Source of the DNA: Sphaeroforma arctica JP610
Taxonomy: Eukaryota
Assembly: GCF_001186125.1 (NCBI RefSeq)
Contig: NW_014040373.1
Coordinates: 35,020-98,877 of the forward strand
DNA: 63,858 bases
Direction: 5' to 3'
Positions 1 through 23,677 of this stretch are shown piece by piece (within the stretch, counting starts at the first letter, position 1; each line of letters starts with the position of its first letter). Made by a program: the position numbers and the translations under genes. A model generated the notes under the pieces. It saw only the letters and a program-made list of their open reading frames with translations, did not search any database and had not been told where the DNA came from.

Positions 1-439
1 GGTCCTCCGATCAGCCAACCAGATGTGCCCATCTGATGAAGGCCAAGTCGGTAATTCTTGATATGTGGCAAGTTATTAATTAAGGCAATATCTAAGGACA
101 TCAAGAGTTTTTTTCTTTTTTTTCTTTTTCTTTTTCAAAATATAGGATTTTATGAGTCTCTCGGATTCGCCCCAATGAAACATACCATAGTTTCTAATAG
201 AGCGACCACGAAACACTAAATAAAATCCCTTCGGCGGGAACAGTACTGAGAGGATTATATAAAGGCAATGTCTCAGCCTCACAATCCCTCAGAGTATTGC
301 TGTTTTCACGAGGCATACCTAACTTTACTAAATGTCTCATTTCGTTTATTTACTTTGCTATTTTTACGATACTTAGAATTTACCTACGCGTACATTTACT
401 CTAAGGCGTTAATATCGCCTTAATAGACCGAATCTTACA
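1..439 (+). repeat. 5' LTR of family A (3' part only)
   Basis: Aligns with ~6262-6697 (e.g. CTGATGAAGGCCAAGTCGGTAATTCTTGATATGTGGCAAG) and ends in CA at 438-439. Confidence 0.92.
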
Positions 440-565
440 CATTTTTAAGTTAGCAAAGGTATTAATTACTTAGACTACTTAAACGTAAAGGTAGAAAACT
501 ACCACAATTTTTCTCCTGTCAAAGCTAGTCCTTAAGAGACCAGCTAGCAGTCATAAGTTAAGATT

Positions 566-1420
566 ATGACCAAGAAAGACAATTCTCCTTCTAAGAAGCG
601 TAGAGCTGAAAAGAAGAGAATGGAAAGAGACGCCGCTGCTGCAGCCGCATTTAACGCGACCGCAGAAGAGGACAATCAATCGGTAACCGAAATCATTGCT
701 ACTGGTATTAATAACCAGGACAATACAACAGATAAGGGTGGAGACACTCAATTAAGAGAGAAGTCCCCTGAAGAAAGAGCCCGCGTGCCAACTATTGCGT
801 TTGCTTCGAAGCTTACGTTTACGAAGCCAAGAAGCCATGCAAAAGGATCGGTTAAGGCGATCCCTACTAAACCTGATGAGAACACTCAGAAGGATCTAAC
901 TCCAATTACAGAGAAAGGAGACAACCCGCTTAATGGAGAGGATGAGAAGGAAATCTCAGAGAGCCGACCCGAATCAGAATCAAACCAGCCATCACACATA
1001 AGTAAGTTGATCGATGAGAACACTGAACTTAAGAATCAGTTAGCCGCTCTTCAGAAGCGAATGACCTCGCAGGAGAAGGCGGTTGTTAAGAAACCGCGAG
1101 AACAGACCGATCAAGGGTACGTATCCAGGCAGACCTCAAACGAGAGACCCCAACATACACTTCCACGTGAATCTACTCAATTTACACTCCCTGTTAAGAA
1201 GATGCGTGCGGAGCACAAGGAACCTGCATACAAGCAAGTTAAGAAATGTGCTGATGAGAAATGTGTTTATGACATGTACCAGTTAACCCCTAACGGTTAC
1301 TGGAACGGGAAGCATGCCCAACCTTGTAAACACTACCTTACAAAATGCGATAAATGTGAGAAGACCAAAGGCTACCGCACTAAATCGTGTAACGTCAGAC
1401 CCGACATTAAGTTGGACTGA
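566..1420 (+). CDS. Gag-like ORF of family A with coiled coil and C-terminal Cys-rich/zinc-knuckle-like segment
   Basis: 284-aa ORF just after the 5' LTR, ending KCDKCEKTKGYRTKSC. It is in frame with the protease across a single TGA at 1418-1420. Confidence 0.75.
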   Translation: MTKKDNSPSKKRRAEKKRMERDAAAAAAFNATAEEDNQSVTEIIATGINNQDNTTDKGGDTQLREKSPEERARVPTIAFASKLTFTKPRSHAKGSVKAIPTKPDENTQKDLTPITEKGDNPLNGEDEKEISESRPESESNQPSHISKLIDENTELKNQLAALQKRMTSQEKAVVKKPREQTDQGYVSRQTSNERPQHTLPRESTQFTLPVKKMRAEHKEPAYKQVKKCADEKCVYDMYQLTPNGYWNGKHAQPCKHYLTKCDKCEKTKGYRTKSCNVRPDIKLD

Positions 1421-3595
1421 CGATACCACCAGGTACAATCGTTACATAGACAATACAAGGACTCTTTAGATGAGCGTCTAATAATCCCTGTATACTGCAA
1501 TGGAAATAAAATCCTTGCGTTGATTGATCCTGGTTCAGAAATTTCATGTATATCCGATCTCTTTGCATTAATGAAAGATATCGAAAGGAGAACACAAACA
1601 ACTCATCTCATTTTAGCTGATGATAAAACTGCTACGTGTGATACCATCGCCACAGATGTTAAAATCTCCCTGGCCGATGTTAGGAGTATCACTACTCAAG
1701 CTGTGATAGTTAAAATGTCACAGAAGTACGACATTATAGTCGGAACGAGTGATTTACTCACTCTAGGTATAACCGTAACTGGTCTACCAACTAACATAGA
1801 TCCATTAAAGAATCAATCAGACGATAACTATCTGAATCCATAAAAGCCCCCGTCAGACACAGTCAAGGCATTAATACCTGACTTTGCGGACAAAATCATG
1901 GATCTGATTCTTGTTGATAAAAAAATAAAGATCAAAGATTGGGCAAAATTCCGCTCTAACGACGGATATGTCAGCCTTGACTTAACCAAGGTAGACTTTA
2001 AACAGTTAAAGTGTCCCTCAAGGAACTGTGTATCCTGGAGACACGAGGCTGTTGTAAAAGAAAAGTTGAGAAGCGGCTAGCAGATGGTGTGATAGAAATT
2101 AACTATCAACAAACGCCAGTTAACTTGGCACTACTAGCCGTAGACCAACATAACTCTGACGGATCGTTTAAGAAAGTCAGAGTATGTTTAGATATGAGTC
2201 CAATAAATAAATTATTGCCGACTCATAGCTTCCACTTACCTCGTATTAACGAGCTACTGCGAAGGATGGAAGGTGCTACAGTAATTACAACTATAGATCT
2301 TACACAAGGATACCATCAAATGCAGGTATAGGGATAATATTATTTATTTCAAAAATGGCAAGTATGTATGATACAATGTATGAACATATGGTATGGCTCT
2401 CATAGTCGCTGTAGTGGTTCAGGAAAGATTGATGGGAAGAAGTGGTCAGTAAATTCTCGTTTGAAGCTTGGGCCAAGCGAGTCGACAATGGAAGATATGT
2501 GCTGAGTCAATTCGGGCCGGTGTTGACAAAACACAGTTACTATCGAATGTTCCATATATTCGCTTGCTGACCTACTAAGTAGAGTACCCACCTTTGTGGT
2601 ACAGATCGGGTCTGCGCCGTGTAGTGCCGCAGAATGGGTTAGTGCAGGAAAAGCCCCACCGTAAATACTTTAGCTTTACATGGAAAGGCAAACAATACCG
2701 GTTCAGAGGTGCACCTTTTGGGTTACACTCTTTACCAGCATTCTTCCAACAAGTAATGGAAGAAATGTTTGCAGACATGCCTAACGTGCAAGTCTATATA
2801 GATGACATAGTCACCTTTTCTAAGACTACAGGCGAACACGCCGCATTATTCAGACGAGTCCTTAAGAGACTCAATGAGCAAAACTTCAAGATTAACGAGA
2901 AGAAATGCCACTTCGCAATGAGCGAAATACAGCTCTCAGGCTACCATATATCTGGGGAAGATATTACGATCGACCCCGGTAAGGTAGAACACCTGTTAGA
3001 TTGGCGAACACCAACTACAGGAAGAGATCTTAACAGCATGTGTGGGTTTGTAAACTTCCTTTCAGATGGAGTACGACACTTAGCTGACTACCTTAAACCT
3101 TTTGGACACTTAAGGTGTCATAAAGGCAAACTAGGAGACTTGTGGACTAAAGAGTGTGATGACGCATTTAAAGCGCTCAAACACGCAGTCCAACAAGCCC
3201 CAGTTGTACAAGGGCCAGTCGATGACGTGCCGTTTGAAATAGCAACGGACGCATCAGACATAGCCTTAGGAGGAGTATTATATCAGGTTATAGATAACAA
3301 ACCTAGATATATACAATTCTTTAGTCGAGCAATGAATGCTTCACAGTTGAATTATCCAACTGTTAAACAAGAGCTATTAGCCATAGTGGCAGCTCTAACG
3401 CACTTCCGAGATTACTTATACGGAACAGCATTTACGCTGATGTGTGATCAGAAATCTCTATAATATGTGAAAGAGATGAAACCCGACTCACAATTACTGA
3501 GTCGCTGGCATGATACAATATCAAAGTTTCATTTTGATATAAAACATCTGCCAGGAATACATAACCATTTACCGGATATGTTATCACGTTTCGTA
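1421..3595 (+). pseudogene. pol: aspartic protease, reverse transcriptase and RNase H (disrupted)
   Basis: Motifs ILALIDPGSEIS; RVCLDMSPINK; IDLTQGYHQM; FRGAPFGLHSLPAFFQ; VYIDDI; IATDASDIALGGVL; HLPGIHNHLPDMLSR. Stops at 1841 and 3461, a frameshift near 2075 and an insertion at 2327-2642. Confidence 0.93.
2327..2642. mobile_element. 316-bp non-coding insertion element with 6-bp TSD (TGCAGG), inside RT
   Basis: TGCAGG lies at 2321-2326 and 2643-2648. A near-identical copy starts at 11871. The RT frame resumes exactly after it. Confidence 0.85.
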
Positions 3596-3630
3596 CCGAC
3601 TTTAATAAATCCGTACGTGAGTTACTAGCC

Positions 3631-4035
3631 ACTGACTGGAAATGTAATCCCAGGTGGTTTGAACTAGCTCAAAAGATATTTGGGACACATGCCATAGATA
3701 TGTTTGCTGCACATCATAATGCACAACTATCGAATTACAGGACTTTAAATCATCCTATGGGAGACGCCTTTCAAATAGACCTTTCCCAACATATTGCGTG
3801 GGCTAATCCACCATGGCAGATAATTGCCCAGCTATTAAATTATGTTCATATACATAAAGCTAGCATCACGTTGTGTTGCCCATTACGAAGTAAAGATCCA
3901 TGGCTTAATAAATTGATCAGTATGATTCAATGCGAGCCAATATATTTAGATAGGGAAGTAGATACTTTCCTATATCAGGGTACCCGAGCCGTCCAGAAGA
4001 CGCCCTGGAGACATACTATTATATGTCGTATAGAT
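3631..4035 (+). CDS. DNA N6-adenine methyltransferase-like domain (phage Dam / DIRS-MT type) within pol
   Basis: Frame-1 translation DWKCNPRWFELAQKIFGTHAIDMFAAHHNAQL...GDAFQIDLSQHIAWANPPWQIIAQLL...TLCCPLRSKDPW. NPPW is encoded at 3805-3816 and the motif-I-like IDMFA at 3694-3708. Confidence 0.85.
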
Positions 4036-4489
4036 CCCATTGGAGCAACCAAATGGACCCCTTCTGAGACCTTCGTTAACAAGGTCAAAGAATCAGAGAT
4101 TCCACTCTCTACCCAATTGAACATTATACAGTTCAAAGGCAACACAGCACTTGAAGTCTGTGCACAAGAAATACAATCTACTAATGTCACTACTGTTAAC
4201 AAGCGTCAGTCTCTAGCTAGGACTCAGTTTGATAACACAAAGTCCAAGCCCGAAGTCTTTCAAACCTATTTTTAAAGGGATTAATAAAAGAAAATCCTGA
4301 AGCGTATACATAAATAATGCGACTATTTAATAAGTCAGGTGTATTTAACGCACATGAGCGCGATTATGACACTCATGCGAAAGCAGGACAGGAGTCTGGA
4401 AACATTACAGACTTAGAAACCACGCAAGTGGATTCTCATCTCCCTACCTTTATTCTGGAGGAGCAGAATGATGAAAACATTCTTGCTTG

Positions 4490-5460
4490 GCTGACGTAAA
4501 ACCATAAGCTAAAGCACCAGAACGTAGTAGACGCACTCAAAAAAGCGAAGTAAAATGGGATCGCGCATCCTAAGCTGGCAACTTTAGTATATAAGTCATG
4601 TACAGACTGAGATCTCAATCAGATCAAGCACTATGGGCTCGCACTGCTGAAGAGTGTGACTGAAGGTGTTCCATGGCGCAGGGTCATCATTGATCTGGTT
4701 GACTTGCCCACGTCCGAGCACACAGGCGACCGTTACGTATGCCACTTCTTTGATGTGGCGTCACGGTTTAACTTGCTCTATCCATTAAAGAATAAGAATT
4801 CGCAGACCGTGGCAGAATTATGTTGCCAAGTCTTTGCTGACCACGGGTGGCCAGGTATTATGTGCACTGATAACGGTAGTGAGTTCTGCGATGACGTAGT
4901 GGAATCGCTAGTACTCGTATCAGGCATATGCCATAAGAGAGGTGTGTCATATAAGCCGCAAACGCAAGGTACGAATATAACGCGCAATAGAAAACTTCAG
5001 TTCTTCTTGCGTACTGCATTAACGGATGATGCAGATGATTGGCCGTACCACCTTAAGTGGGTACAAACACAGATGAACGACTGTGCTGATCAGTTTACAG
5101 GAACTACACCCGCTTACTATTATCGTGGCAGATATAGTGGGTTACAAATCTCCTTTAACAAGGACGAGCCTGATCACCATGAGTTACCATTGTTATAGAA
5201 GGTACAATGTATTTATAACGTTGTATATCCTTGCTTGCGCGAAATACGCAATATAGCCTTATTGAAAGGGCAAAAGCGTTGGAACACTACCAAAAAGATA
5301 GCAGAGTATCAGCTTGGTGACAGAGTTAACATCCGTCAACGTAATTACGATACTACTGTATTAACATCTAAATGTATAGGTCCATATATGATCTCTGTAG
5401 TAGACACTAAAGGTGAAACGTACGAGGTAAATAACCCCGATGGTTCTAGAGCGCTTAATA
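4490..5460 (+). pseudogene. DDE integrase (HHCC, core, GPY/F) of family A
   Basis: NHKLKH...SCTD* zinc-finger remnant; PWRRVIIDLVD; DVASRF; MCTDNGSEF; YKPQTQG; KCIGPYMI. In-frame stops are present. Confidence 0.92.
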
Positions 5461-5524
5461 TAGGCACAAGTCGTATTCCGAGTACAGAGATTATACTCGC
5501 AAGAAGACATGACTCTATTGCCCC

Positions 5525-5685
5525 TCTTGATCGTACTAAATTTAACGACATTATATGGAGAACGGATAAGGGAAGGCTATACATACTATCGTACACGCTT
5601 TATAGATGGTACAATAGATGAGTTGACTTCAGATGCTTTCGATAACCAAGACTATTTAAAAACCTTTAATTGAAAATGGAGTAAA
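5525..5685 (+). other. Chromodomain-like C-terminus of the family A integrase (frameshifted)
   Basis: Clearer in the second copy (ORF 57834-58301): FEFKDIIWRTDKGGNTYYRIRCIDGTIAELTSDAFDNQDYLKAF. Confidence 0.55.
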
Positions 5686-5947
5686 GGCCTGCATAAGTCA
5701 CAAGCTGAAAAAGATAGCATGTTTCCATCGTCTTAAGGCACGGAAGTTAAAACTTATCCGCCTACAGCATTTATCCCGAGCCTTAATGCTCACCCTTCAT
5801 ATGTGCTTAAGACAACTCCGCCTGAGAAACAGTAAATATACGTTATGCTACTTGATGTTTTAGACCCATTTTCCTTTTTACTTTTTGACCCATAACCAGA
5901 TTGAGTGAGCAACTTGCTTCTCCTGGGTTTCAAGGCTGCGTGGGTTC

Positions 5948-6697
5948 TGTATAAATGCCGGGCCTCCACATTAGAATCTTGTAATATAAACGTACTCTTA
6001 ATAGTACGTAAAACGTTCTCTTAAAAGTACGTAAACTCTTAATTGGGTTTTAACAGTTTTTATTAATTAAATACCTTTTCCATTTTACATATCAGATATT
6101 TAGACAAGGCCATTAAAAGGCTTCAGTAAAATACCAAATATAAGAGTTGGTCTAGTTCTATCAATATAACTATATTAACCTTCCAAATCTATTTATATCT
6201 GAATACTTCGGTAGCGAGATGGCTCAACCGAACATAGGTTTCTAAGGACTATTAGCGTTGCTTCGTTCAGCCAACCAGGTGTGCCAGTCTGATGAAGGCC
6301 AAGTCGGTAATTCTTGATATGTGGCAAGTTATTGGTTAAGGCAATATCTAAGGACACCAAGAGTTTTTTTCTTTTTTTCTTTTTCTTTTTCTAAAGATAG
6401 GATTTTATGAGTCTCTCGGATTCGCCCAACGAAACATACCATAGTTTCTATTAGAGCGACAACGAAGCACACTAAATAAAAACCCTTCGGCGAAAACAGT
6501 ACTGAGAGGATTATATATAGGCAATGTCTCAGCCTCGCAATCCCTCGGAGTATTGCTGTTTTCACGAGGCATACCAACCTAACTTTACGAAAAGACTCAT
6601 TTCATTTATTTACTTCGTATTTATTTAAATTTAGACTTAACCTAGGCGTTTAATTACTCCAAGGTGTTAATATCGCCTTGATAGACCGAATCTTACA
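5948..6697 (+). repeat. 3' LTR of family A (5' boundary approximate)
   Basis: Starts at TGTAT after a G-rich PPT-like stretch (GGGTGGGGG in the second copy) and ends TTACA at 6697. Matches 1-439 and the reverse complement of 57105-57510. Confidence 0.8.
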
Positions 6698-7017
6698 GTA
6701 AGGGGTCACACAACAGACGCGCGAGTGCTATCAATGATGCAAATGTGCACAGGACAATCTGACACAATCAAGAAGTTCAAGACAATAGACGAGCTGTCAA
6801 CAAGACCGAACTTCCCCGGTGACATCACTGGGACCGAACATCTCACTAAGATCACATATGAGAAAATAGTTTCTCACATGATGGAATAACACTAGTGACA
6901 ATAAGTTCTCACGTGACGGAATAAGCACAAGTGACGTCACACGATAAGCTTGACTATCAAACACCGTATATATCCCTCACAATTACAGGCAACAAAGCAA
7001 CAAGCTACGGGTCATAC

Positions 7018-8965
7018 CAGGTGCTCATGGGCTCAGGGACTCATGGACGCAGGGGCGTAGGGGCTTAGAGACTCGGGGATTAGGGCTTAGAGACTTGGCT
7101 ATCTGCCTCGGCTGGCTGGCTGGCTGGCTGGGCGGGCTGGGTTGGCTGGCTGAGCTGGCTGGCTGGCTGGGTTCGAGAGTAGTATAGGTTGGTAGCGCGA
7201 CAGTAGAGTGACCTGATACGATGTTAGCGTGCGGTACAGGGGACTATAAGTAAAGTGTTAGTGTTTTTAATGTATGGTGCGTTCGAATGAATTAATTTAT
7301 GATCTCACCCTCAGTTATATACTGATGGTGTTTGTACTCGTGTTCAACCACTTGGGTTGGCCAGGGTAAAGACTCCTATGATCAGTATGAGAAACCTTAT
7401 GCAGAACACTTTAGCACTCGGAGTTATTTTCCAGAAATAAATATATCATACTATATGTTACTACACTCAGTCTCGAACCTCGGCTCTAGGCTAGCCGGTG
7501 GCCCGTATTCTATAAATAGAATAATCTGAGAAGAAGTCCCAAGTTACTCTTACGTTCTCTCGGGCTGACCCACCTATACCTATATTAATTTGAGAACAAG
7601 TCCCAAATTACTCTCGGGCTGACGACGTAAGACGTTATTAACGTATATAGAAATACGTCTTCTACTGTAGTCTCTCACTTCCCCTCAATTTTACAATCAA
7701 GGGCTAAAGGCTAGAGGATGAAGGCTGAAGGCTGAAGACCTAGATTGTGAAATTGTTGACTCTGACACTTCTGTAGATGGGTTGGGCGAAAAACGTTGAA
7801 CAAACAGATGAATATTTGTCAAAAACGTTGACGAATTGGAGCTGTTGAGTATAGACTCGATGAAAATTGATGAAAACGTTGACTCGTTAGGACTGTTGAC
7901 TCGATTAAATTGCCGAAAACGTTGACTTTCTGAAGAGTAGACTATCTCCTGCACAGTGACAGGCTTCATGACAGGGCGTAGATAATCATCTGTACGGGGA
8001 CAGGCATCACAATGTCGCAGGTAAATTTACTCATGAGATCTTGAAAAAACATTTGCTTTTAGAAGCGGTGTCGAGTGTCGAGTGTCGACTGTGGTGTGGA
8101 TGCTAGACAGCTCCCTTCTGCGTTGTGGCATAGTAGTGTCGTATTTGTTGTCGTTTGGTCGTTGTCGTAAATTTGCTAGTTATTGAAGCTACGAAGACTT
8201 GTGACGAATATCCAAGAAAAAATGGGTTGCAAAATATTTGCAACAGGAGCAAAAAAAAACCCCCAAAAATCACCGAAATTCCAAGTCAAAAATCAACGAA
8301 AAATAAATTTCGCGCAAAACAAAATAACCACACAAGCTTATCTCGATTGATGATTGGTCCAGGAGAAGAAAAAAAATTGGTGCTAGGCTGCTCAGCCTGT
8401 AGCGGGTCGACGGGACCAAAAATACTCCAGGCGATAAAAATTCAAGATAGAGTAATCGATGCTGTCGAAGCGGAAGAGTCGGAGTCCGGAGACACCGAGA
8501 GACAGTGGACTCTCTACAAAGTAGGCTGACTCGGGGCTCAGGGCTGAGGTCTCGGGTCTCGGGTCTCGGGTCTCGGGGCTCAGAGCTCAGGGCTCAGGGC
8601 TTAGGGACTCATAGTCAGGGCCTCAAGGCCTCAGGGACTCACGGACTCAGGGGCTCATGGGCTAAGGGACTCTTGGACTCGGGGGCTTAGGGGCTTAGAG
8701 ACTCGGGGATTAGGGTTATCTGCCTCGGCTGGGCTGGGCTGGGCTGGCTGGCTGGCTGGCTGGCTAGACTGGTTGGCTGGGCTGGGCTGGGCTGGGTTGG
8801 CTGGCTAGGCTGGTTGGCTGGCTAGTGCGGTACAGGGGACTATAAGTAAAGTGTTAGGGTATTTAAAGTATGGTGCATTCGAATGAATTAATTTATGATC
8901 TCACCCTCAGTTATATACTGATGGTGTTTGTACTATTGTTCAACCACTTGGTTTGGCCAGGGAAA
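7018..8965. mobile_element. ~1.95-kb non-coding insertion bounded by ~350-bp direct repeats containing (GGCT)n
   Basis: 7024-7366 and ~8590-8962 are direct repeats ending TTGGCCAGGG. The flanks join up as the gag-leader sequence seen uninterrupted at 13255-13340. Confidence 0.6.
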
Positions 8966-9270
8966 ACCTCATATACACGGTAAACACGTACAGCGGAAGT
9001 GTAGCAAAGCAACAACACTGTAACAGTAAGTAATTATTTTATATGAATTATTACTAAAGACGGGAGGGAGGGGGGGGGGGGGGCGTACATCAACGGAGAC
9101 ATCTGAAAATGCTAACAGCAACCAGAACAAGCGTGTACGGTGAAGGAGAAGGGAGTGAAGGCGCGGATGACGTGGGAGTCAGTCCAATGGGGGGGGCGGG
9201 GGGGGGGGGAAGCCCAGACAATGGTTTGTACTAACCTACACCGGCGGGGGTACCCATTGTAGCGTCAGTA

Positions 9271-10549
9271 ATGCGTCTAGAAACAGACGAGAATACCTGT
9301 CAAGGCAATCACGTTTTGGTGAGTTGGTTTGCGTTCAAATTGGAACAAACAGCACCAGTTCCCATACCAACTCTACATAAGATGAGGGTAGACATACATG
9401 ACCAACAGCCAGAGCGCCGTATGCCACTAGTGGATGCGGAGCTCAGACGACGATATGACCAAGCGATTAATGATTGTGGTAATGATGAGGAAGACAAACT
9501 TATCCAAATCAGTCTGTATATTAGTGAGCTATAGATCATGCGCTCACGTCTAGGCAATCAGATAAACAAACCATCTACTAAAATGCTACTATAGACTTCG
9601 GAATTTCTTAAGATGCCTAAGGATAGTTTCGTTAGAATGGAAAACTGTGATGATATGATAGAGTGTACTACACAATGTAGTGATCTATTCTTAACTAAGT
9701 CAATGCCTCTGTGCCAGTACCCAGCACTAGTGCGAAGTCTATTGGATTTCACCGACGCACCGGAGTAGACCAAATCAGTACTCAATAACTTAAGAAATTC
9801 TGAGACACATGCAACCAGGTACTTCACCGATCCTGAACAGTTCAATAGAATTATGATTGATCGACTCAGATCGCAACCAGTAGACTATCTATTGGAGAAT
9901 TTTCTAAATGACATGCAGAATAAGAAGATGAACGTTGAAGTGCGCACAGAGCGTGTGCACAAGACAATGGCGATATTGAAGGAGCGTTACCGCAACTCGG
10001 ACAAGAGACCTATACACTTACAAATCCTCAAAGTACAAAGGTACATAGCACTTAGGTACTATGGATTGCAATCAGTTGTAGATACTCTCATTAAAAGTGA
10101 CAAGCAACCGGATAGGAGGGAAGGACACTTGTCCGACATGGACCACGGCAAGTTTCATACTATGACTGAGACACACATAACAACGGCGGCTGTGACACAA
10201 GCAGAGCGTATGTTGAGATATCAGGTGCGAGCAGCAAACAAACGTAACAATGCACAGACTACCACACCGGCGGAGGCGAACACTACCAATGCTAACAAAC
10301 GGTACAAAACAGACAATGGTGCAAACGACCACCATCCCACATGGGAACAGGCACAGGAGAAGAAAGGGGCACGTGAAGAGCGTGCTTGCCCCTACTGCCT
10401 GGTAATGACATCCCCATATCGGTTCAGTAATGTCCCAAGAAGAAAGCGAACCAAGTAAAGCAGGCTGAGCACCAAGCCAAGAAAGATGTGCAGATAGCAA
10501 GAATATCCATTACATCTGGCAAGGTGGAAGACATCACAGAAAGTGATGA
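9271..10549 (+). pseudogene. Gag-like pseudogene of a second retroelement family (copy 1)
   Basis: Repeated at 13639 and 17978. C-terminal CPYC-x6-H/Y-x4-C knuckle (RACPYCLVMPAPHRFSKCP in copy 3). Followed by a PPT-like tract and an LTR-like sequence. Confidence 0.7.
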
Positions 10550-10569
10550 CCCTGAAAACACTGGTGGGC

Positions 10570-10859
10570 GGAAGCAAACCTAGTTGTCCTGGCTGACAGA
10601 CTCAATGTATTTACAAATGAAGAAATAATATTAGAGTCATCAGAAATATTAGCGGTAGAACCGATAAGATATACCAGGACTCCCCGGTGTGAGAGAAACA
10701 CTCAAGTATATCCTGAGTCTAGTGAAGAAAAAAACAAATAGAGACTCAGTTCAGTTCGCTCAGACTAGGGACTTTTCCTAGCTGAGAAAACCGTACCTGA
10801 GAAGAGGTCTATTGTATTCCTTTGTCACGTACCTTCCAGCTACTCTCCTTACTTAGACA
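10570..10859 (+). repeat. Diverged LTR related to family B LTRs
   Basis: 10630-10850 aligns with the reverse complement of 14762-15077. Preceded by AACACTGGTGGGC (AACACTGGGGGC in family B). Confidence 0.6.
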
Positions 10860-11870
10860 AGTCAACAAACTTCCTATCACACTAAGGACTCCCCTTAAGA
10901 GGTAGAAGAAATGAATTAGAATTTAGTCCTGTCCAGAAGTAATACACCCTTTATTACTAAAAAGGATAACTCAAAGAGAAGCAGTGAGGACCCGAAGAGA
11001 AAAATGCTCAACGGTCAACGAGAAGACGACAATACACACTGTGGAGGGCAGAAGAAAGAAGAAGAGAACGAGAGCAGAACTCCTCAAATATCAAAAGGAC
11101 CTCGGCTCCACGACCCAGGTAAATATATCGTGGTCCAGAAGTAAGCTGGGCACGTGTCAAGGCGTTACAAGTTTGATTGTGAACTGTGAAGGTATCTCAG
11201 TGAGTGAAAAAATTAGTAGTGTCACCTTGATTAATTAATCAATGTTGCGGACTTTCAACCAAGAAAATGTACTGACGTCAGGGGCCCTACTCTACAACAC
11301 GAGATACATCAATAGCAAGGCACAATACAAATGGTGTGAACATACAGAACAAGCTACAAAAGTATAAAATCACACTAGCTGCGAGTTTATTAGCTCTTGC
11401 ACTTAACTGAGCACCAACGAGTCTCGGGTGATCTAAGGTTAATGGAACCGATTACCAAATTGAAGTGGAATGTTCATTGAACACAGAAATACGCATCGAT
11501 GTTGGAAAGTAAGATCTAGCTATACACTTAAAACAGTGCATCCTAAATGTTACGCAAGAAATTAGACATCACTAAAAATAACGGTAGTCGCTAACAAGAA
11601 CAGCGAGCTCAATTCAGATGTTCAAATCACGCTAGACACAAAGAGGTCGAATTAGATACTCAAATGACACATCATTAGTCACATAAAGAATCAGAAGCTT
11701 AAGTCACAAATAAGACGTAGAAGCATAAATCGAAGGAGGTGTCTGGCTCATCATAACACGATTGAGACACAGGACACTGAGATTGGGTACGATTGCCATT
11801 ATGCAACGACTGTGTACAAAATAGTCATTAGAAAAGTAACAAGGGGGCAACAAGGGAGTTCGATCTTGAT

Positions 11871-12119
11871 CATAGGGATAATATTATTTATTTCAAAAAA
11901 TGGCAAGTATGTATGATACAATGTATGAGCTTATGATATGGCTCTCATAGTCACTGTAGTGGTTCAGGAAAGATTGATGGGAAGAAGTGGTCAGTAAATT
12001 CCCGTTTGAAGCTTGGGCCAAGTGAGTCGACAATGGAAGATATGTGTTGAGTCAATTCGGGCCGGTGTTGACAAAACACTGTTACTATCGAATGTTCCAT
12101 ATATTCGCTTGCTGGCCTA
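11871..12119. mobile_element. Second copy of the 316-bp insertion element (3' end lost in the N gap)
   Basis: ATAGGGATAATATTATTTATTTC...TATATTCGCTTGCTG is nearly identical to 2328-2568. Confidence 0.9.
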
Positions 12120-13638
12120 NNNNNNNNNNNNNNNNNNNNGTGGCTGGTAGTGAACTTGTGGCTACCGGGACAAACAGGGCTGACATAATAGAACACAAAG
12201 CTTGCAAACCAGTATCAATTACGAATTATAACAAGTGATCAACACCACACAACATTGAAGAAGTGTAGCAATAGATTGCACTCGGCGAGACTGTGAGATC
12301 ACACTGGCGACGATTCAAGCAAGAACGGACAAGAGACTGGTAAACCAAGAACATTCATAGTGCAATTTGCATCAAATAAATGAATGAGGGATACCAAGAG
12401 GCCTCGAAGGACGCACATACAAGGAATTACACGTCAAACACCATAAGGTACAGAGTACTAGGAAGATCAAACTGTTCAGAAACACATACAGGAACAAATT
12501 AGTGGAAGTCAACAAAGTACTAGGAAGAAAAATCAGTTCACAAACACAGTCAGAAACAATTAGTGGAAGTCACACCCCAAAAACAATTTGTTCTCCAAGG
12601 TGATACATCCAATTCAAATGGACACTCCAATTCAAGAGTAACCGTCAGACAACCCTAGGCAGATACGCAATTAGAGCAATACCAGACTTAACACGAGACA
12701 AATCTAGGCCCACAATAGAAGTGATACACCGAACGCGCGATATACACGGGTAGAGATGACAATCTAACTCAACAAACACTAGACATCACTAGTCAATGAC
12801 AGATCATGGATTCAGAAGAGGGCACAAACGACCAAGAGACACAAAGAGAATCGACGTTGGAAGTATTAAGCACTCAAAGTGAACAGAACACATTCACTGA
12901 ATCACAGGAGCACGATTACATCCAGGTCTGAGGAACGAACATCAACCAGACAGGTCTAATAATCCGTGAGGCATCTCAACCTAAGCACGGTACAAAAAAA
13001 AAAGGGAACATTCAGTGAGTGTGGTACAAGGGAACATTCTTGGGCAAGTCAAGAAGGAGAAACATTACAAATAACACACACGTATAAATAAGTTCGGTAC
13101 AAGACAATACATCTTCAGTGGACCGAACTTCCACAAGTGACGTCACTATGACCGAATATCTCATTGAGGTCTAATATGAGAATTCACAAGTGACGTCACA
13201 CGTGACGAAATAAGCTTGACTAACAAACACCGTTTTTACACCTCATAAATACAGGGAACAAAGCAACAAGCTATCGTACCATACAGAACAGTATACACTT
13301 CCATCAGAAGTGCAGCAAAGCAACAACACTATAATAGTAGGTAAAATAAATAAATGAAATATTTATTCGTTTGGCTTATTACTAAAGACAAGGGGGTTGG
13401 AGCGCGTATATTCGCTCGAAAATATATCAAGAGACTGTATTAACAATCTACAGTACATACCCACACACCATCGCAGACATCTCAAGATACCAACGACAAC
13501 AAGAGCAGGCGTATATGGTGGTAGGGAAAGAGGTGAAGGCGCTGATGACACTGGAGTCAGACCAGTGGGAGGGGTCCAAGTCCAGGCAATGATTCTGGTC
13601 AGCCTACACCGGCTGGGGTTCCCATACTAGCATCAACA

Positions 13639-13910
13639 ATGCGTCTAAAAATAGACAAGAGTATTTGTCAAGGCAATCACGTTCTGGTGAGTCAGTTTGC
13701 GTCCAAGTTGCAACAAACAGCACCGGTGCCTATACTAACTCTACATAAGGCGAGGGTAGGCATTCATGACCAACAGCCAGAGCGACGCATGCCACTAGTG
13801 GATGCGGAGCTCAGACGACGATATAACCAAGCGATCAACGATTGTGGTGACGATGAGGAAGATGAAATCATTCGAATAAGTCAGTACATTAGTGAGTTAG
13901 AGCTCATACG
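13639..13910 (+). pseudogene. Gag-like pseudogene copy 2, truncated by an LTR
   Basis: MRLKIDKSICQGNH...ISELELIR is homologous to the 9271 copy and stops at the TGTAG LTR boundary. Confidence 0.7.
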
Positions 13911-14240
13911 TGTAGATTTTAAGAATGACTGAAAGATACGACCAAGGGAACAATAGACCTCTTCTCAAGTGCGAATCTCCCCGCTAGGTAAAGTTCCGAG
14001 CTGAAGGACTCGCATTGAGTCTTTATTTGTGTTTATTATTTTCTACACTAGACTCAATTATTATTTAAGTGTTTCACTCACACGCGGGAGTCCCGGTTCA
14101 CCTACTGGTAATCCCGCTTCTATTTCTGATCACTCTATCATCAGAAATATTGGATCCTAGATCCAAAACTCAATATTTGATAATCCTGGGTTTTGGGTTT
14201 AGAATTGGCTTTTTTGATAATTTGGTTCCTAGATGCTACA
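13911..14240 (-). repeat. LTR of family B
   Basis: 330 bp with TGTAG...CTACA termini; direct repeat of 14762-15077. Confidence 0.85.
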
Positions 14241-14760
14241 ATTGGTCTAAGTATGGCATATGATGAGTGCACATCGAGCGCAATTAGTACGTATGTGTTG
14301 TCTATTCGAGTCTACGAAGGGACCGATGGTGTCCATTTGTCCGAAAATGCGGCCGTTATTGATTGTAAGGGGTGAAAGCCCTTCATGTATATTTTGTTCT
14401 TGAGACACGGAACACAGCCTTCAATGTATTTGTTTATATGTTCGTTCTGGCGTGACCATGTATGGCCATCTAGTTGCAGTTTGTTAACTGTTTCTTCGAC
14501 AGTGTAGTGGCCCAAAGTGTGGTATTGATCTATCAGAGTAACTCTATCCTCATATGTGACTGTGGCTAGCTCTGTTGACTCGTCATCAGTTTGTACTGAT
14601 ACAATCGTTTTTGGTCAAAGTATGGTACTGTTGTGCCTATATGACTACTAGTGTGTCCCCCATGGTGTTTTTTTCACAGGCTGTCGTGCCCTCTTTCATG
14701 AACCTGTTGTTCGTGTTCTCAACGATCATCGGGTCTTGTTCTATCAGTTGTAGAGTTTGA
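14241..14760 (-). pseudogene. Family B pol fragment: C-terminal part of the methyltransferase-like domain, HHCC zinc finger and start of the integrase core
   Basis: Minus strand reads LIEQDPMIVENTNNRFMKEGTTACEK(TPW)GDTLVV, then DQYHTLGHY...EGCVPCLKN, then YVLIALDVHSSYAILRPI. Confidence 0.8.
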
Positions 14761-14761
14761 G

Positions 14762-15077
14762 AGTAGATTGCAAGATACGACCGAAGGAAACAATAGTTCT
14801 CTTCTCAAGTGCGAATCTATCAGCTAGGTAAAGACTTAGCCTGAAGTACTCGCATTGAGTCTATTTGTGTTTAGTATTGTCTACACTAGTCTCAAATATT
14901 ACTTAAGCGTTTCTCTTACACAAGGGAGTCTCGGTACCATCTACCGGATCTCCCGCTATATTTCTGATCACTCTATCATCAGAAATAATGGATCCTAGAT
15001 CCAAAGGTCAGTATTTGATAATTCTTGGTTTGAGTTTTGGATTGGGGTTTCTGATAATCTGGTCCCTGGATGTTACA
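14762..15077 (-). repeat. 3' LTR of a family B element
   Basis: On the minus strand it begins TGTAAC right after CTGGGGGC (PPT-like); repeat of 13911-14240. Confidence 0.85.
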
Positions 15078-15554
15078 GCCCCCCAGTGTTATGCTTCTCA
15101 GCCTGCGTAGGACTAGAAAGTGACAACTTATAGTACTTGACTATCTAGAGGTTGTTGTTTTTGTACAGGGAAAAACTTGACCCTTAAGGGGCATAAAATG
15201 AAAAACCTGCCATCATCATCTATTCTTAAATATTACCTATTAAATTAATTTATACTAAATAATAGTAGTTCTCGACCACGCTCATCGGAGTCAGTCTTGA
15301 CCTGTGTTCTCGGTTGATCTCAACTTGGCTTAGGAAAATCTATCTCAATGGTGGCTCTGCAACCGAGTTTTTGGTCTTTATCCCTCTGGTTTGTGGGCAG
15401 AGCATTTTCCAACGTGAGAAAAGAGAGAGTATCCTTGGAGTCAGTGTAACTTGTTGAGTTCCCCGCCTCGTGCGCTTCCTGTTGCTCGCTGATAGTTCAT
15501 CCGTATCTGTTGCTGTTGACTTCGTCGGCCTGGATTGCCTTCGCTTGTGTCTAG

Positions 15555-16435
15555 TACGATGTCGGCATATTGTAAGAATATCAGCATCTGCGATGTCTGA
15601 TTCATGCGTCCAGGTACGCTCCCCGTCTATCCATTGCAGTAGGTGTTCCTGGGATCCATCACCTTTTTTTTTGAATGGTCTATGGTCAAGTATCGAGTAG
15701 AATTGGGTCTCGTCCGATGGTTGTACTTGACTGTTGGTGGTAAATTCTTTTAGCTCACTAGCCTTCTTGACTAGGCCAATTAATTCATCACTGGCCGAGT
15801 TAGAATATTCGGGGGCTTAGTCCCATCAAGGTTACGGACGAAATACCCGCTGTCCTCCTTGCTTACTATCTTGTATAGTCCTCCGTATGGTGCTGTCATT
15901 TTATTCATTTCATCTGGGTAACGAACCATCACAATGTCCCCTTCCTGGAAGTGTACCTATTTCTCTTGGCAGCATTTTTTCTTGATATTGTGCAACAGTT
16001 GCATCTAGTTGTGGCCGTATCGACTCCTCTAGATCCTTCAGTCTTGTTTCCCACGGTATTGTTGTACCGGGTGCACTGACTGGTGTGTTATAGTTGGTAA
16101 GTTAGTTTTGTCGTCGTCCATAGTACACATTGAATCGTGGTGATTTGTGTCTGCGTGATGAACATAGGTTGTGGCCCATTTGAACAAATGGAAGGCGTGA
16201 GCACCAGTTGCCTGGATTTTGTTCAACAAGCTTTCGTAATAAATGTATGAGGTCTCTATGTGAGCGCTCACTTGCTCTCAGTACTTTGGGTTGATATGGT
16301 CTGGACACCAGGTGTTGTGACGGTGCCTGCTCAAAGATTTTCGAGAGTATGTCATATACATATTATATGCCCTGATCCGTTTGTATGACTTTTAGGAAGC
16401 CGTGTTCACACATGATTGGTACTAGTGTTCGTACA
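15555..16435 (-). pseudogene. Family B integrase core, GPY/F region and chromodomain
   Basis: CEHGFLKVIQTDQG; SRPYQPK...SERSHR; MTAPYGGLYKIV; chromodomain QFYSILDHRPFKKKGDGSQEHLLQWIDGERTWTHESDIADADIL at ~15570-15710. Confidence 0.85.
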
Positions 16436-17977
16436 AAATGCATATGTTCATACAAGAATATAGGATAGTAAAGGTCTAAACAATATTTACAACCACTTAA
16501 CGACATAAAGAAGTCGGGTACACATCCTATATATTACCTAAGACCGTTTTACAAAGAGGATACTAAACAAACTCAGACTATCAATCAGATAGGAGAGGGA
16601 TCCAAAGAATCACACAACGGGGTAAATTTAATAGGATAAAATCTTAAAGGACATAAATACGTATGGTACACATCCTATATATAGACATAAATACGTATGG
16701 TACACATCCTATATATATCACTTTAGAAGGTTCCGCAGAAAGGATATCAAACAAACTCCAACTATCAATCACATAGGAGAGGTATTCAAGGAATCACACA
16801 AAAGGCGGAAATCAAAGAGGATGAGATCTCAAACACTACCTGAATAGTAGAACACAAGTCGCTATTAAGACTTCGATATCGATAGTAAATACCAAGGTTT
16901 CTAGAAGTATTATAAAGACAGACAAGAGATTCAAACAGAAACACACCACAACTAGCACAAATAGTACGACAAGCATAGAGATTTAGAGAAGAAGCACACA
17001 TGCTCACTTCTAATTTGACCACAGTCAAGTCATAAACACACACAGAGAAGGTAGATTAGTATAAAAGCACATAAGTATCAAGGATCACAAAAGAAAAGAC
17101 GCTCTAAGATCGATCAAATCTCGGAAATAAGCATCTAATAAATTCCATGACACCAACCAAGTAATCAAGCGAGACACAACTACATAACAGGAAGGATATC
17201 TCGTATACCAGTCATAATGCAAGACACTGGAACAACCAAATCTCAAAAACACAGCTGTAAGGGGTAGAATCAGGAAATCGCTCAGATTCCAAATACGAAT
17301 ATCAAATGTTCCCCACACAGAACAAAGACCATACTATTAACACACAAGCGTGAGATTTAAACAGACGGATTGAAGTGGCAAGAGTAATCAACTCACTACA
17401 AGTTGTACACGAATACCAAGCGCTACTGATAGAACATAAGAAAGTTTATAGTGCGGAGAATCCAGCCTAACATCACACACAAACAAGGGCACAAAAGAGC
17501 ATAGGTCCACAAGCGCACATGCGCACACGCAAGCTGAATAAGCACACACGAGTCGAGGTTCAAAACCAGAAACGAGTAGACAATAGGATATATATTACAT
17601 AATAAAACAGGTGACATTATCACCAACACAGTTCGGTACAAAGACAAAGACAACTAGAGGTTTAGTACAGGACTGAACATCAGGGGTGACGTCAACAAGA
17701 CTCAACTTCCCCAGAGATATCATTAAGACATAACATCTTGGACAGGACCGAACTTCAACAAGCGACGTCACTAGAACCAAACATCTCATTGAGATCACAT
17801 ATGAGAAATTAATTTCTCATATAAAGGAATAAGCACAAGTGACATCACACGTGACAAAATAAGCTTGACTAACAAACACCGTTTTTACACCTCATAGGTA
17901 CAGGGTTTAGGGTTTTAGGGTTTAGGAGTAGTTCTGGTCAGCCTACACCGGCGGGGGTACCCATACTAGCATTAGTA

Positions 17978-19232
17978 ATGCGTCTAGAAATAGCCAAGCG
18001 TATTTGTCAAGACAATACCTTTCTGGTGAGTAGATTTGTGTCCAAGCTGGAATAAACAGTACCGGTGCCGATACCTACTCTACACAAGATGAGGGTAGGC
18101 TTTCACGACCAACAGCCAGAACGACGCATGCCACTCGTGGATGCGGAACTCAGACGACGATATGATTTAGCTTTCAACGACTGTGGCGATGATGAGGAAG
18201 ACGGCCTCATTTAAATAAGTCAGTAGATTTGTGAGTTAGAGCTCATGCGTTCACGCTTAGGCGACCAGATAAATGAACCACCTCTTGCAAAATTACTAAA
18301 GACTTCAGAATTTTCTAAGATGCCTAAAGATAGTTACTTTAGAATGGCAAACTATGAATATCTCATAGAGTTTACTACACAATGTAGCGACCTATTCTTA
18401 GCAAAGTCCATGCAACTGTATCAGTACCCAGCGCTAGAAACAAACCTATTAGATTCCACTAATGCAACAAAGAAGACCAAGTCAGTACTCAATAACTTGA
18501 GAGATTCTGAGACGCATACGACTAAGCACTTCAAGGAACCCGAGCAATTCAATAGGATTATTATTGATATACAGACTCAGAACCCACCCAGTAGACTATC
18601 TGTTGAAGAAGTTTGTCAATGGCATACAGAACAAGAAACTGAACGTCAATGGCGATGTTAGAGAAGCGTTACCGCAACTCAGACAAGGAACCCATACAAT
18701 TTCAGCTACTCAAAGTACAAAGGTACCCAGCACTTAAGTACTACGGACAGCAAACACTGGCGGATACTCTAGTCAAAGAAGATAAGTAACCAGATGGGAG
18801 CGAAGGGCACTTGTCACACATAGAACACACCAAGTTTCATACTATGACCGAGTCACACATAAGAATGGCAGCCGTGATGCAAGGAAAGCGTATGTTGAGG
18901 GATCAAGTGCGAGCGCTAAACAAGCGAAACAACACACAAACAACCGTCCGAACAGAGGATAACACTACCAATGCTAACAAACGCTATAAAACAGACAATG
19001 ATGCAACTAACCAAAACAAAACAATGGGATAGGCACAGGAGAAGAAGGGGGCACGTGAAGAGCGGGCATGTCCCTACTGCCTGGTAATGCCAGCCCCACA
19101 TCGGTTCAGTAAATGTCCCAAGAAAAAGGTGAATCATGCCAATCAGGCTGAGGAGCGGGCAAAGAAGGATGTGCAGTTAGCAAGACTGTCAATTACATCT
19201 GACAAGGTGGAAGACATCATAGAAGGTGATGA
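17978..19232 (+). pseudogene. Gag-like pseudogene copy 3
   Basis: Homologous to 9271-10549 throughout. Zinc knuckle CPYCLVMPAPHRFSKC. Preceded by the same leader as at 6790-7015 and 13110-13280. Confidence 0.7.
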
Positions 19233-19573
19233 TTGTTTGTTTAATACCCCGAAGATGTCGCCAAGAGGCGCCTGCGGCGCCAATAGGCCTAATAAAACGC
19301 CTTTCGGGCTTTTTTTTTCAAGTTTGGCCAGCACACTTACCCTATGCGAGCCTACAGGGCCACAACCCACAGGCCACAGTGCACAGCCGCACAGGGCAGA
19401 GCCCACAGGGCCACAAAATGAAGGAGTATGTATTTATCACTGAAAACGTAGTTATTAGCTAAATGAATACCCTCTTTGAATAAACGTTTCACGGCGCCCC
19501 AGCCGTGTTTTATCACAAACTTTTTTTTGGCGGGAAATATTTCTTTCGACGCAACCAAATGATAGCCTCCTAA

Positions 19574-23677
<4,104 letters not shown>

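What the first reader, a model, noticed from the sequence alone, without database searches (positions are those of the whole stretch)
3631..4035. Gypsy/chromovirus LTR retrotransposon carrying an N6-adenine DNA methyltransferase domain between RNase H and integrase
Seen: right after the RNase H end (HLPGIHNHLPDMLSR, then a 1-nt frame shift) the sequence encodes W..NP.WF....FG...IDMFA..HN..L...DAF.......ANPPW..I...L......LCCP....PW. It is followed by an HHCC/DDE integrase and a chromodomain-like tail, all between direct LTRs. Established: [DNS]PP[YFW] is the catalytic motif of amino-methyltransferases, and a phage-Dam-like MT domain after RT/RH is a hallmark of tyrosine-recombinase DIRS elements, not of DDE-integrase Ty3/Gypsy elements. 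Inference: this is a retrotransposon lineage combining a DNA 'writer' (6mA) and a chromatin 'reader' (chromodomain) in one Pol. It might mark its own cDNA or insertion site, for example to mimic active-chromatin 6mA or to protect against host defence.
Basis: partly seen in the sequence, partly recalled or inferred. Interest (0 to 1): 0.92.

Follow-up and report, generated by a model that had tools for sequence, protein, structure and literature searches.

The report
Dead gypsy retrotransposon with Dam-like methylase
This is a broken copy of a gypsy-type jumping gene, likely from the protist Sphaeroforma arctica, that carries an adenine-methyltransferase-like domain between RNase H and integrase and a worn-down chromodomain at its end; the domain likely methylates the element's own copying intermediates, and this kind of element was already described in a 2026 preprint.

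Summary
Positions 3622-4074 encode a domain with DMFA and NPPW motifs. It matches Pfam Dam (E 4e-5, below the curated cut-off) and folds confidently (pLDDT 88) like amino-methyltransferases; its best match among solved structures is the RNA cap methylase PCIF1. Two intact relatives (62-70% identical in this domain) carry protease, RT, RNase H, this domain and a DDE integrase in one ORF. The RT groups with Ty3/Gypsy, not with DIRS-like RTs, so this is not a nested or private insertion. This copy is dead: ten stops, four frame changes, an insertion in RT, and the integrase glutamate lost. It is not new: bioRxiv 10.64898/2026.05.21.726589 describes DAM-LTRs, including an ichthyosporean lineage in S. 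arctica, and this scan met the type on other DNA. Two small additions. The tail is a degenerate chromodomain (profile bridge 96%, fold, language-model hits), although the preprint says this lineage has none; its methyl-lysine cage is lost, so 'reader' is doubtful. The PCIF1-like fold suggests testing RNA and RNA:DNA substrates. Enzymatic activity is unproven, and the preprint's E. coli test was negative.

The parts
1..439 (+). 5' LTR, cut by the window start; ends ...TTACA
   Evidence: 89% identical to 6261-6697; K2P distance 0.084 over 429 aligned sites; contigs continue upstream with sequence like that near 6240 (loose ends)
557..1420 (+). gag-like ORF (287 aa, Cys/His-rich end), followed by a single TGA and pol in the same frame
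   Evidence: no gag Pfam hit, so assigned by position (inference)
1484..1750 (+). aspartic protease
   Evidence: Pfam Asp_protease_2 E 1.3e-5
2062..2330 (+). reverse transcriptase, N-terminal part
   Evidence: tblastn with P0001/P0002, 64-74% identity
2331..2653 (.). 323-nt unrelated repeat inserted into RT
   Evidence: 96% copy at 11872-12119; contigs of 4 of 4 runs join 2330 to 2654
2654..3589 (+). RT C-terminal part (YIDD) and Ty3/Gypsy-type RNase H; one stop at 3461
   Evidence: Pfam RVT_1 E 1e-17, RT_RNaseH_2 E 1e-32
3622..4074 (+). Dam-like / DIRS-type N6-adenine methyltransferase domain (DMFA from 3697, NPPW 3805-3816), out of frame with RNase H in this copy because of a frame change near 3597-3598
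   Evidence: in frame with RNase H in P0001 and P0002
4075..4490 (+). poorly conserved linker with a frame change near 4270
   Evidence: 23% identity between P0001 and P0002; 4-20% to the window
4491..5114 (+). integrase zinc finger and DDE core, inactivated (stops at 4497, 4551, 4608; catalytic Glu replaced)
   Evidence: Pfam rve E 1.1e-7
5290..5515 (+). SH3/Tudor-like integrase C-terminal domain (approximate bounds)
   Evidence: model of the matching tail of the second copy: residues 30-105 align to SH3/Tudor-like folds, including RSV and MLV integrase C-terminal domains
5529..5682 (+). degenerate chromodomain, broken here by a frame change near 5573 and a stop at 5671
   Evidence: hhalign 95.7% to chromodomains of related DAM-LTRs against at most 0.8% in 20 column shuffles; ESM Atlas top hit Chromo 0.92 for P0001 1250-1325
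6257..6697 (+). 3' LTR (true 5' boundary lies further upstream, not located)
57104..58781 (-). second, 5'-truncated copy of the same family (integrase core to LTR end); unbroken tail ORF 57834-58343
   Evidence: 89% identity over 1069 nt

Best explanation
This is a decayed copy of a Ty3/Gypsy DAM-LTR retrotransposon, likely from Sphaeroforma arctica, whose Pol carries a DIRS-related amino-methyltransferase domain between RNase H and integrase that likely puts N6-methyladenine on the element's own reverse-transcription products. Shown: the architecture, single-ORF intact relatives, conservation of the domain at the level of RT and RNase H, the fold, the Gypsy RT, and that this copy is dead. Inferred: the domain is packaged with Pol in the virus-like particle, binds SAM through the DMFA loop and acts through NPPW on cDNA or RNA:DNA intermediates with little sequence specificity, since it is a bare 150-residue catalytic core. 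After integration, host AMT1 would keep 6mA at ApT and favour transcription (the preprint's model). The integrase ends in an SH3-like domain and a degenerate chromodomain that may tether integration to chromatin but is unlikely to read methyl-lysine in the canonical way. Odds: DAM-LTR identity about 0.97; active enzyme in intact copies about 0.6; this particular mechanism about 0.45.
For: P0001 (1376 aa) and P0002 (1400 aa) are single ORFs with RT-RH-Dam-IN, and P0002 also has a Pfam protease hit. Dam identity between P0001 and P0002 is 67%, against RT 61%, RH 72% and linker 23%; window to P0001/P0002 is 69%/62% against linker 4%/20%. Related DAM-LTR domains pass the Pfam Dam cut-off (P0009 43.5 bits, P0157 53.8). 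Fold: pLDDT 88; VIA Z 10.2 to PCIF1 (rmsd 3.1, 133 aligned), 8.0 to T4 Dam, 7.8 to E. coli Dam. 18 of 25 integrase-bearing hits keep NPP[WFY]. The window RT groups with P0001/P0002 (SH-aLRT 99), and all 58 non-DIRS-like rows are split from 11 DIRS-like RTs at 100. In the Dam tree the window lies in a 16-row set with Abeoforma P0009 (96). The closest named piece is S. arctica SARC_02119, 80% over about 40 residues. The preprint reports raised 6mA and expression of DAM-LTRs in S. arctica and A. whisleri.
Against: No activity has been shown; eukaryotic DAMs expressed in dam- E. coli did not raise 6mA (preprint). The intact sister P0002 has CPPW, and 7 of 25 integrase-bearing hits lack NPP[WFY]. 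Iyer et al. (PMC4738411, passages) judged DIRS methylase domains likely inactive. The best structural match is an RNA enzyme, PCIF1. The 6mA enrichment in the preprint is a correlation and could follow from higher transcription. Most RT neighbours have no Dam domain (8 of 120 have one), so the domain is dispensable for this group of elements. The host is inferred from homology; no genome was held.
Confidence: 0.45

Rival explanations
1. The domain is catalytically dead or dispensable as an enzyme. It is kept as a nucleic-acid- or SAM-binding module of Pol, for example holding template RNA or spacing RNase H from integrase.
For: CPPW in the intact P0002; FPPV in 3, and NSPW, RPPW and HPPW in 1 each of 25 integrase-bearing hits. 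Negative E. coli assay. Iyer et al. propose inactivity and transcript binding for the DIRS domain.
Against: NPP[WFY] is kept in 18 of 25 integrase-bearing and 53 of 63 RT-without-integrase hits. D26, F28, A29, P63 and P64 are invariant or at least 90% conserved among 29 aligned domains. That is more than a purely structural role would predict (inference).
Confidence: 0.3
2. The domain is an active PCIF1-like RNA methylase that marks the element's own genomic RNA (cap-proximal or internal m6A) rather than DNA, aiding its stability, translation or packaging.
For: PCIF1/CAPAM is the top fold match in both searches (Foldseek E 3e-5; VIA Z 10.2 against 8.6 for the next), and most following hits are rRNA adenine methylases. 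Iyer et al. place DIRS methylases in the PCIF1 clade. PCIF1 prefers ssRNA > RNA/DNA > ssDNA > dsDNA (PMC9178792, abstract and passages), which would explain the negative E. coli genomic-DNA test.
Against: Sequence profiles point to phage Dam-like DNA methylases (Pfam Dam, phrog_111, TIGR01712). A 29-sequence profile finds no PCIF1 chain in the PDB at E<=10. Structural identity to PCIF1 is only 13-18%, and a shared fold does not fix the substrate. The domain lacks PCIF1's cap-binding and WW parts (domain layout partly recalled).
Confidence: 0.2
3. The arrangement is an accident: a DIRS fragment nested in a Gypsy element, or an assembly chimera.
For: The domain is out of frame with RNase H in this copy, and the copy has another insertion in RT.
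Against: Intact single-ORF relatives carry the same junction. At least 20 other proteins have Dam between RNase H and integrase or next to either. Contig depth over 3585-4256 is of the same order as over RT and integrase in 3 of 4 runs (lower in X20). The RT is Gypsy.
Confidence: 0.02

Closest known systems
Ichthyosporean DAM-LTR lineage (Fernandez-Moreno et al., bioRxiv 10.64898/2026.05.21.726589; main text read in full, supplements not seen)
   Same: Ty3/Gypsy organisation with a Dam-like domain in Pol; Asn-Pro-Pro motif; likely the same host species (S. arctica); groups with an Abeoforma whisleri Pol (P0009) in the Dam tree.
   Different: The preprint says this lineage lacks chromodomains. 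Here the tail is a degenerate chromodomain, clearer in the Abeoforma protein (24.5 bits to a chromodomain profile, shuffle maximum 6.0) and missed by Pfam. I could not check whether this exact family is in their tables.
Chlorophyta DAM-chromovirus-like clade and EpiLTRs (same preprint)
   Same: Dam-like domain plus chromodomain in one LTR element.
   Different: Those have Pfam-detectable chromodomains, and EpiLTRs add a cytosine methyltransferase; none was found here.
DIRS1-type tyrosine-recombinase retrotransposons (RT-RH-MT ORF)
   Same: Homologous methyltransferase domain directly after RNase H; 690 relatives at E<=0.001, many with an RT-RH-MT layout and no integrase.
   Different: Here there are direct LTRs, an aspartic protease, a DDE integrase and a Gypsy RT; no tyrosine recombinase was detected.
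PCIF1/CAPAM cap-specific adenosine N6-methyltransferase
   Same: Closest solved fold (Z 10.2, rmsd 3.1 over 133 residues); NPP-aromatic motif (NPPF in PCIF1).
   Different: 13-18% identity; no sequence-profile match; only the catalytic core is shared.
Phage Dam-like N6-adenine methyltransferases (Pfam PF05869, TIGR01712)
   Same: Best sequence-profile match; small catalytic domain.
   Different: Below both curated cut-offs; embedded in a polyprotein; activity unknown.

Membership tests
Ty3/Gypsy LTR retrotransposon | Direct long terminal repeats | tested here: met
   5-439 against 6261-6697, 89% identical, ending TTACA; 5' end outside the window
Ty3/Gypsy LTR retrotransposon | Order PR-RT-RH-IN with a DDE integrase | tested here: met
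   D, D and E intact in P0001/P0002; E lost in this copy
Ty3/Gypsy LTR retrotransposon | RT groups with Gypsy RTs | tested here: met
   The 120 best RT-RH hits carry Gypsy-type Pfam sets; split from 11 DIRS-like RTs at SH-aLRT 100
Ty3/Gypsy LTR retrotransposon | Target-site duplication | not testable with these tools
   The 5' end lies before the window start; no genome is held
Ty3/Gypsy LTR retrotransposon | Primer-binding site and polypurine tract | tested here: inconclusive
   No TGG after the 5' LTR; no 9-11 nt self-priming match; polypurine tract not located by eye
DIRS | Tyrosine recombinase instead of DDE integrase | tested here: not met
   Pfam scans of the element's ORFs and of P0001/P0002 give rve and no recombinase
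DIRS | RT in the DIRS clade | tested here: not met
   the DIRS-like outgroup was labelled by layout (RT-RH-MT, no integrase), not by named references
DAM-LTR (ichthyosporean lineage) | Dam-like domain inside Gypsy Pol | tested here: met
DAM-LTR (ichthyosporean lineage) | Dam domain groups with ichthyosporean DAM-LTRs | tested here: met
   16-row set with Abeoforma P0009, SH-aLRT 96. The RT tree joins them at 0.93, but one search shows them as neighbouring basal branches, not one clade
DAM-LTR (ichthyosporean lineage) | Ichthyosporean host | tested here: inconclusive
   Inferred from S. arctica SARC_02119 at 80% and Abeoforma P0009; the window's own gene names are withheld
DAM-LTR (ichthyosporean lineage) | No Pfam-detectable chromodomain (the preprint's criterion) | tested here: met
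   No Chromo hit; a degenerate one appears only by profile bridging, fold and language-model features
DAM-LTR (ichthyosporean lineage) | Raised 6mA and transcription of insertions | not testable with these tools
   No modification data; no RNA holder on record listed
Chromovirus | Chromodomain at the integrase C-terminus | tested here: met
   hhalign 95.7% through bridging domains, which match canonical ones at 99.3%; shuffles at most 0.8%; Atlas Chromo 0.92; model residues 108-168 align to Oxpecker (Z 6.0) and SUV39H1 (Z 5.8) chromodomains. The direct canonical-profile score is not significant (0.3 bits)
Chromovirus group I (methyl-lysine reader) | Aromatic cage Y-W-Y as in HP1 (PMC3605345, passages) | tested here: not met
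   The cage W is C/F/F, GY is absent, and the first aromatic is F/H/S in the three family tails
Chromovirus | RT in a named chromovirus clade | tested here: inconclusive
   Lies among unnamed chromodomain-bearing Gypsy RTs (68 of 120 neighbours score at least 12 bits); no named reference elements in the trees
Phage Dam-like N6A methyltransferase (PF05869/TIGR01712) | Score above the curated cut-off | tested here: not met
   23.8 against 28.1 bits; 17.1 against 97; relatives P0009, P0020 and P0157 pass Pfam
Amino-methyltransferase (any) | Rossmann-like fold with a SAM loop and [DNS]PP[YFW] motif | tested here: met
Amino-methyltransferase (any) | SAM-dependent methyl transfer | not testable with these tools
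   Needs an assay; the preprint's E. coli test on related domains was negative

The most novel reading that the evidence does not exclude
The ichthyosporean DAM-LTRs are really degenerate chromoviruses, part of a wider set of Dam-plus-chromodomain Gypsy elements in unnamed metagenomic hosts. Their 'Dam' is an active PCIF1-like enzyme that methylates the element's RNA or RNA:DNA intermediate inside the particle rather than double-stranded DNA. That would be a retroelement-encoded RNA/hybrid methylase and would explain the failed E. coli test.
Probability: 0.2. Interest if true: 0.6.

Novelty: already known. Interest (0 to 1): 0.22.

Why it matters
As a discovery it is pre-empted: the element type, the host lineage and the 6mA-mimicry idea are in a May 2026 preprint, and this copy is dead. 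What remains useful is practical. Two naturally intact family members, one NPPW and one CPPW, give a natural pair for the open question of whether retrotransposon Dam-like domains are active and on what substrate. The PCIF1-like fold points to substrates (RNA, RNA:DNA hybrid, ssDNA) that the preprint's E. coli genomic-DNA assay did not test. The hidden chromodomain corrects the preprint's description of this lineage and suggests that Pfam-based counts miss such domains.

Tried and rejected
No whole genome was available, so I had no copy count, target-site duplication or dN/dS; protein-level conservation was used instead. A closer look at family variation over the Dam region from sequencing runs was not obtained. 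One search shows an indel at the 3597 junction in contigs of 4 of 4 runs (16, 8, 7 and 2 contigs), but at only 3-42% of depth and with 35 rows not shown, so it does not show that most copies are in frame there; the in-frame claim rests on P0001 and P0002. No RNA holder listed. PDB sequence searches with the domain and with a 29-sequence profile found only chance hits. Direct tests of the tail were weak: no Pfam hit, 0.3 bits on a canonical chromodomain profile, hhalign 2.7% directly to canonical domains. With the bridging HMM, P0002 scored 11.9, the second copy 7.2 and P0001 0.5 bits, against a shuffle maximum of 7.9 in 1200. The tail model is low-confidence (pLDDT 54) and Foldseek gave no match at E<=0.001. 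Rfam found nothing in 1-20000. ApT and CpG observed/expected ratios in the element were unremarkable. An Atlas search for the Dam domain did not complete. A programmed frameshift at 3597 was rejected because relatives read through in frame. P0154 is labelled DIRS-like in the tree but is probably an LTR fragment. Literature: six searches; one search returned only the preprint. PMC9940879, PMC6338049 and PMC5890265 (passages only) report no earlier Gypsy-Dam element in the passages seen. The preprint has 0 occurrences of PCIF1 or CAPAM in its main text; its supplements were not seen and may bear on the family list and on chromodomains.

Full report
Observation. After the RNase H end, a frame change near 3597-3598 leads into a stop-free stretch with IDMFA (3694) and ANPPW (3802). 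The domain, about 3622-4074, matches Pfam Dam at E 3.9e-5 (23.8 bits, cut-off 28.1), phrog_111 DNA methyltransferase at E 1.6e-4 and TIGR01712 at E 0.003. A model from a 9-sequence alignment has mean pLDDT 88. All 5 Foldseek matches at E<=0.001 are the cap-specific adenosine methyltransferase PCIF1/CAPAM. VIA-align against 48,161 chains ranks PCIF1 first (Z 10.2, rmsd 3.1, 133 aligned), then rRNA adenine methylases (Z 8.1-8.6), T4 Dam (8.0) and E. coli Dam (7.8).

The element. Direct LTRs at 5-439 and 6261-6697 are 89% identical (K2P 0.084); the 5' end lies before the window. Between them lie a gag-like ORF (by position only), protease, RT, RNase H, the Dam-like domain, a linker, an integrase and a tail. 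The copy is dead. It has 10 stops across six frame segments (one at a frame change), four frame changes, a 323-nt repeat inserted in RT that contigs of 4 of 4 runs skip, a stop in place of the last HHCC cysteine, and no catalytic integrase glutamate.

Is the domain part of Pol? Yes. A search for longer homologues gave 2 hits among 493 candidates, P0001 and P0002. Both are single ORFs with RT, RNase H, Dam and integrase, with the RNase H-Dam junction in frame. The domain is as conserved as the core enzymes (67% between P0001 and P0002, against RT 61%, RNase H 72%, linker 23%), which implies selection on the protein (inference; no dN/dS was possible). Among the 120 best RT-RH hits, 8 carry the domain, including an Abeoforma whisleri Pol, P0009. 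A search of 1.84 billion representatives found 690 relatives at E<=0.001. Of 155 proteins classified (147 of the 150 listed, plus 8 earlier ones, some overlapping), 25 have an integrase, 63 have RT without integrase (mostly the DIRS layout) and 67 are fragments.

Phylogeny. In a 69-row RT-RH tree the window joins P0001 and P0002 (SH-aLRT 99), and all Gypsy-side rows are split from 11 DIRS-like rows at 100. The DIRS label comes from domain layout, not named references; only 17 of 55 such rows showed a recalled DIRS RNase H motif, against 0 of 24 LTR rows. In an 83-row Dam tree the window lies in a 16-row set with P0009 (96). The RT trees disagree on whether this family and P0009 form one clade (0.93; separate neighbouring branches). 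Dam-bearing RTs occur at several places among Dam-less ones, so repeated gain or repeated loss cannot be told apart here.

Host. The nearest named sequence is S. arctica JP610 SARC_02119 (80% over about 40 residues), and the nearest named Pol with the domain is from Abeoforma. A host gene of the window is in NCBI and EukProt but unnamed to me. S. arctica is therefore likely but not shown.

The tail. Pfam finds no chromodomain in the window, P0001, P0002 or P0009. A profile of 18 chromodomains from RT neighbours scores P0009 at 24.5 and P0020 at 15.0 bits (shuffle maximum 6.0 in 1000) but this family at about 0. A three-sequence profile of this family's tail aligns to 12 tail domains of related DAM-LTRs at 95.7% probability (E 9e-9; 20 column shuffles at most 0.8%), and those align to canonical chromodomains at 99.3%. 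The ESM Atlas gives Chromo as top hit for P0001 1250-1325 (0.92, 183 shared features, 20 of 30 hits). A low-confidence model (pLDDT 54) aligns residues 108-168 to Oxpecker and SUV39H1 chromodomains (Z 6.0 and 5.8, a range where chance matches are common) and residues 30-105 to SH3/Tudor-like folds. I take the tail as a chromodomain derivative (about 0.85). The aromatic cage described in PMC3605345 (passages) is lost, so methyl-lysine reading is doubtful. Among 20 Dam-plus-integrase proteins chosen for having a full C-terminus, 16 score at least 12 bits on the canonical profile.

How it likely works. Shown: architecture, fold, conservation. Inferred: Pol is packaged in the particle, and the bare catalytic core uses SAM to methylate adenines on cDNA or RNA:DNA intermediates. 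The host maintenance enzyme AMT1 would then keep the mark and favour transcription of new copies, which is the preprint's model (about 0.45). For catalysis: NPP[WFY] in 18 of 25 integrase-bearing and 53 of 63 RT-only hits, and near-invariant D26, F28, A29, P63 and P64. Against: CPPW in the intact P0002 and six other variants, a negative E. coli assay, and the view of Iyer et al. that DIRS methylase domains are likely inactive (PMC4738411, passages). Rivals are a non-catalytic binding module (0.3) and an RNA-directed PCIF1-like enzyme (0.2). Iyer et al. already place DIRS methylases in the PCIF1 clade, and PCIF1 prefers ssRNA over hybrid, ssDNA and dsDNA (PMC9178792, abstract and passages). A sequence profile does not reach PCIF1.

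What is known. bioRxiv 10.64898/2026.05.21.726589 (main text read whole; supplements and figures not seen) reports Dam domains in non-DIRS LTR elements. It defines five lineages, including one in Pirum, Abeoforma and S. arctica, describes chromodomain-bearing DAM-LTRs, and reports raised 6mA and expression in S. arctica. It states that the ichthyosporean lineage lacks chromodomains and does not mention PCIF1. A search for DAM-LTR with ichthyosporea returned only this paper. Earlier notes of this scan found the same element type in other genomes and reached the same preprint; a look-up by sequence found nothing.

Verdict. Real, correctly read as a Gypsy element with a Dam-like domain and a chromodomain-like tail, but already described. 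The hidden degenerate chromodomain and the PCIF1-like substrate lead are modest additions. Interest 0.22.

Noticed in passing
window 14237-14783 and 15457-16434, minus strand: Rearranged pieces of a second DAM-LTR family: 53-56% identical to P0157, including the C-terminal part of a Dam-like domain (14643-14765), integrase, and a chromodomain-like tail (15538-15717) that keeps its W and TW residues. A 330-nt direct repeat lies at 13911-14240 and 14749-15077.
   Followed up: partly
window 1418-1420: The gag-like ORF and pol are in the same frame, separated by a single TGA followed by C. P0002 begins at about the same point. Possible stop read-through or separate pol expression; conservation across copies was not checked.
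   Followed up: no
window 2331-2653 and 11872-12119: A 323-nt unclassified repeat inserted in RT, with a 96% identical copy that runs into an assembly gap; no Rfam match.
   Followed up: partly
window 8900-10549, 13100-13911, 17725-19232: Three diverged copies (78-85%) of another repeat, with a 229-aa ORF at 9769-10458 that has no Pfam match above cut-off.
   Followed up: no
proteins P0162 and P0174: Large Gypsy-side Pols with the Dam-like domain before RT; P0162 also has an endonuclease/exonuclease/phosphatase domain.
   Followed up: no
proteins P0015, P0016, P0018, P0031, P0160, P0170, P0171, P0213, P0266: Unnamed-host elements with Dam plus a chromodomain, scattered among Dam-less RTs; P0015 has NSPW and P0016, P0018 and P0213 have FPPV. 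Possibly lineages beyond the preprint's five.
   Followed up: partly
window 52750-54330 and 61622-63352, plus strand: Intronless host ORFs that look like a family-18 chitinase and a subtilisin-type protease (by eye; not scanned). The latter is in NCBI and EukProt.
   Followed up: no
window 7018-7200 and 8530-8825: GC-rich short tandem repeats (GGCT/GGGCT-type) within a 1.6-kb duplicated segment.
   Followed up: no
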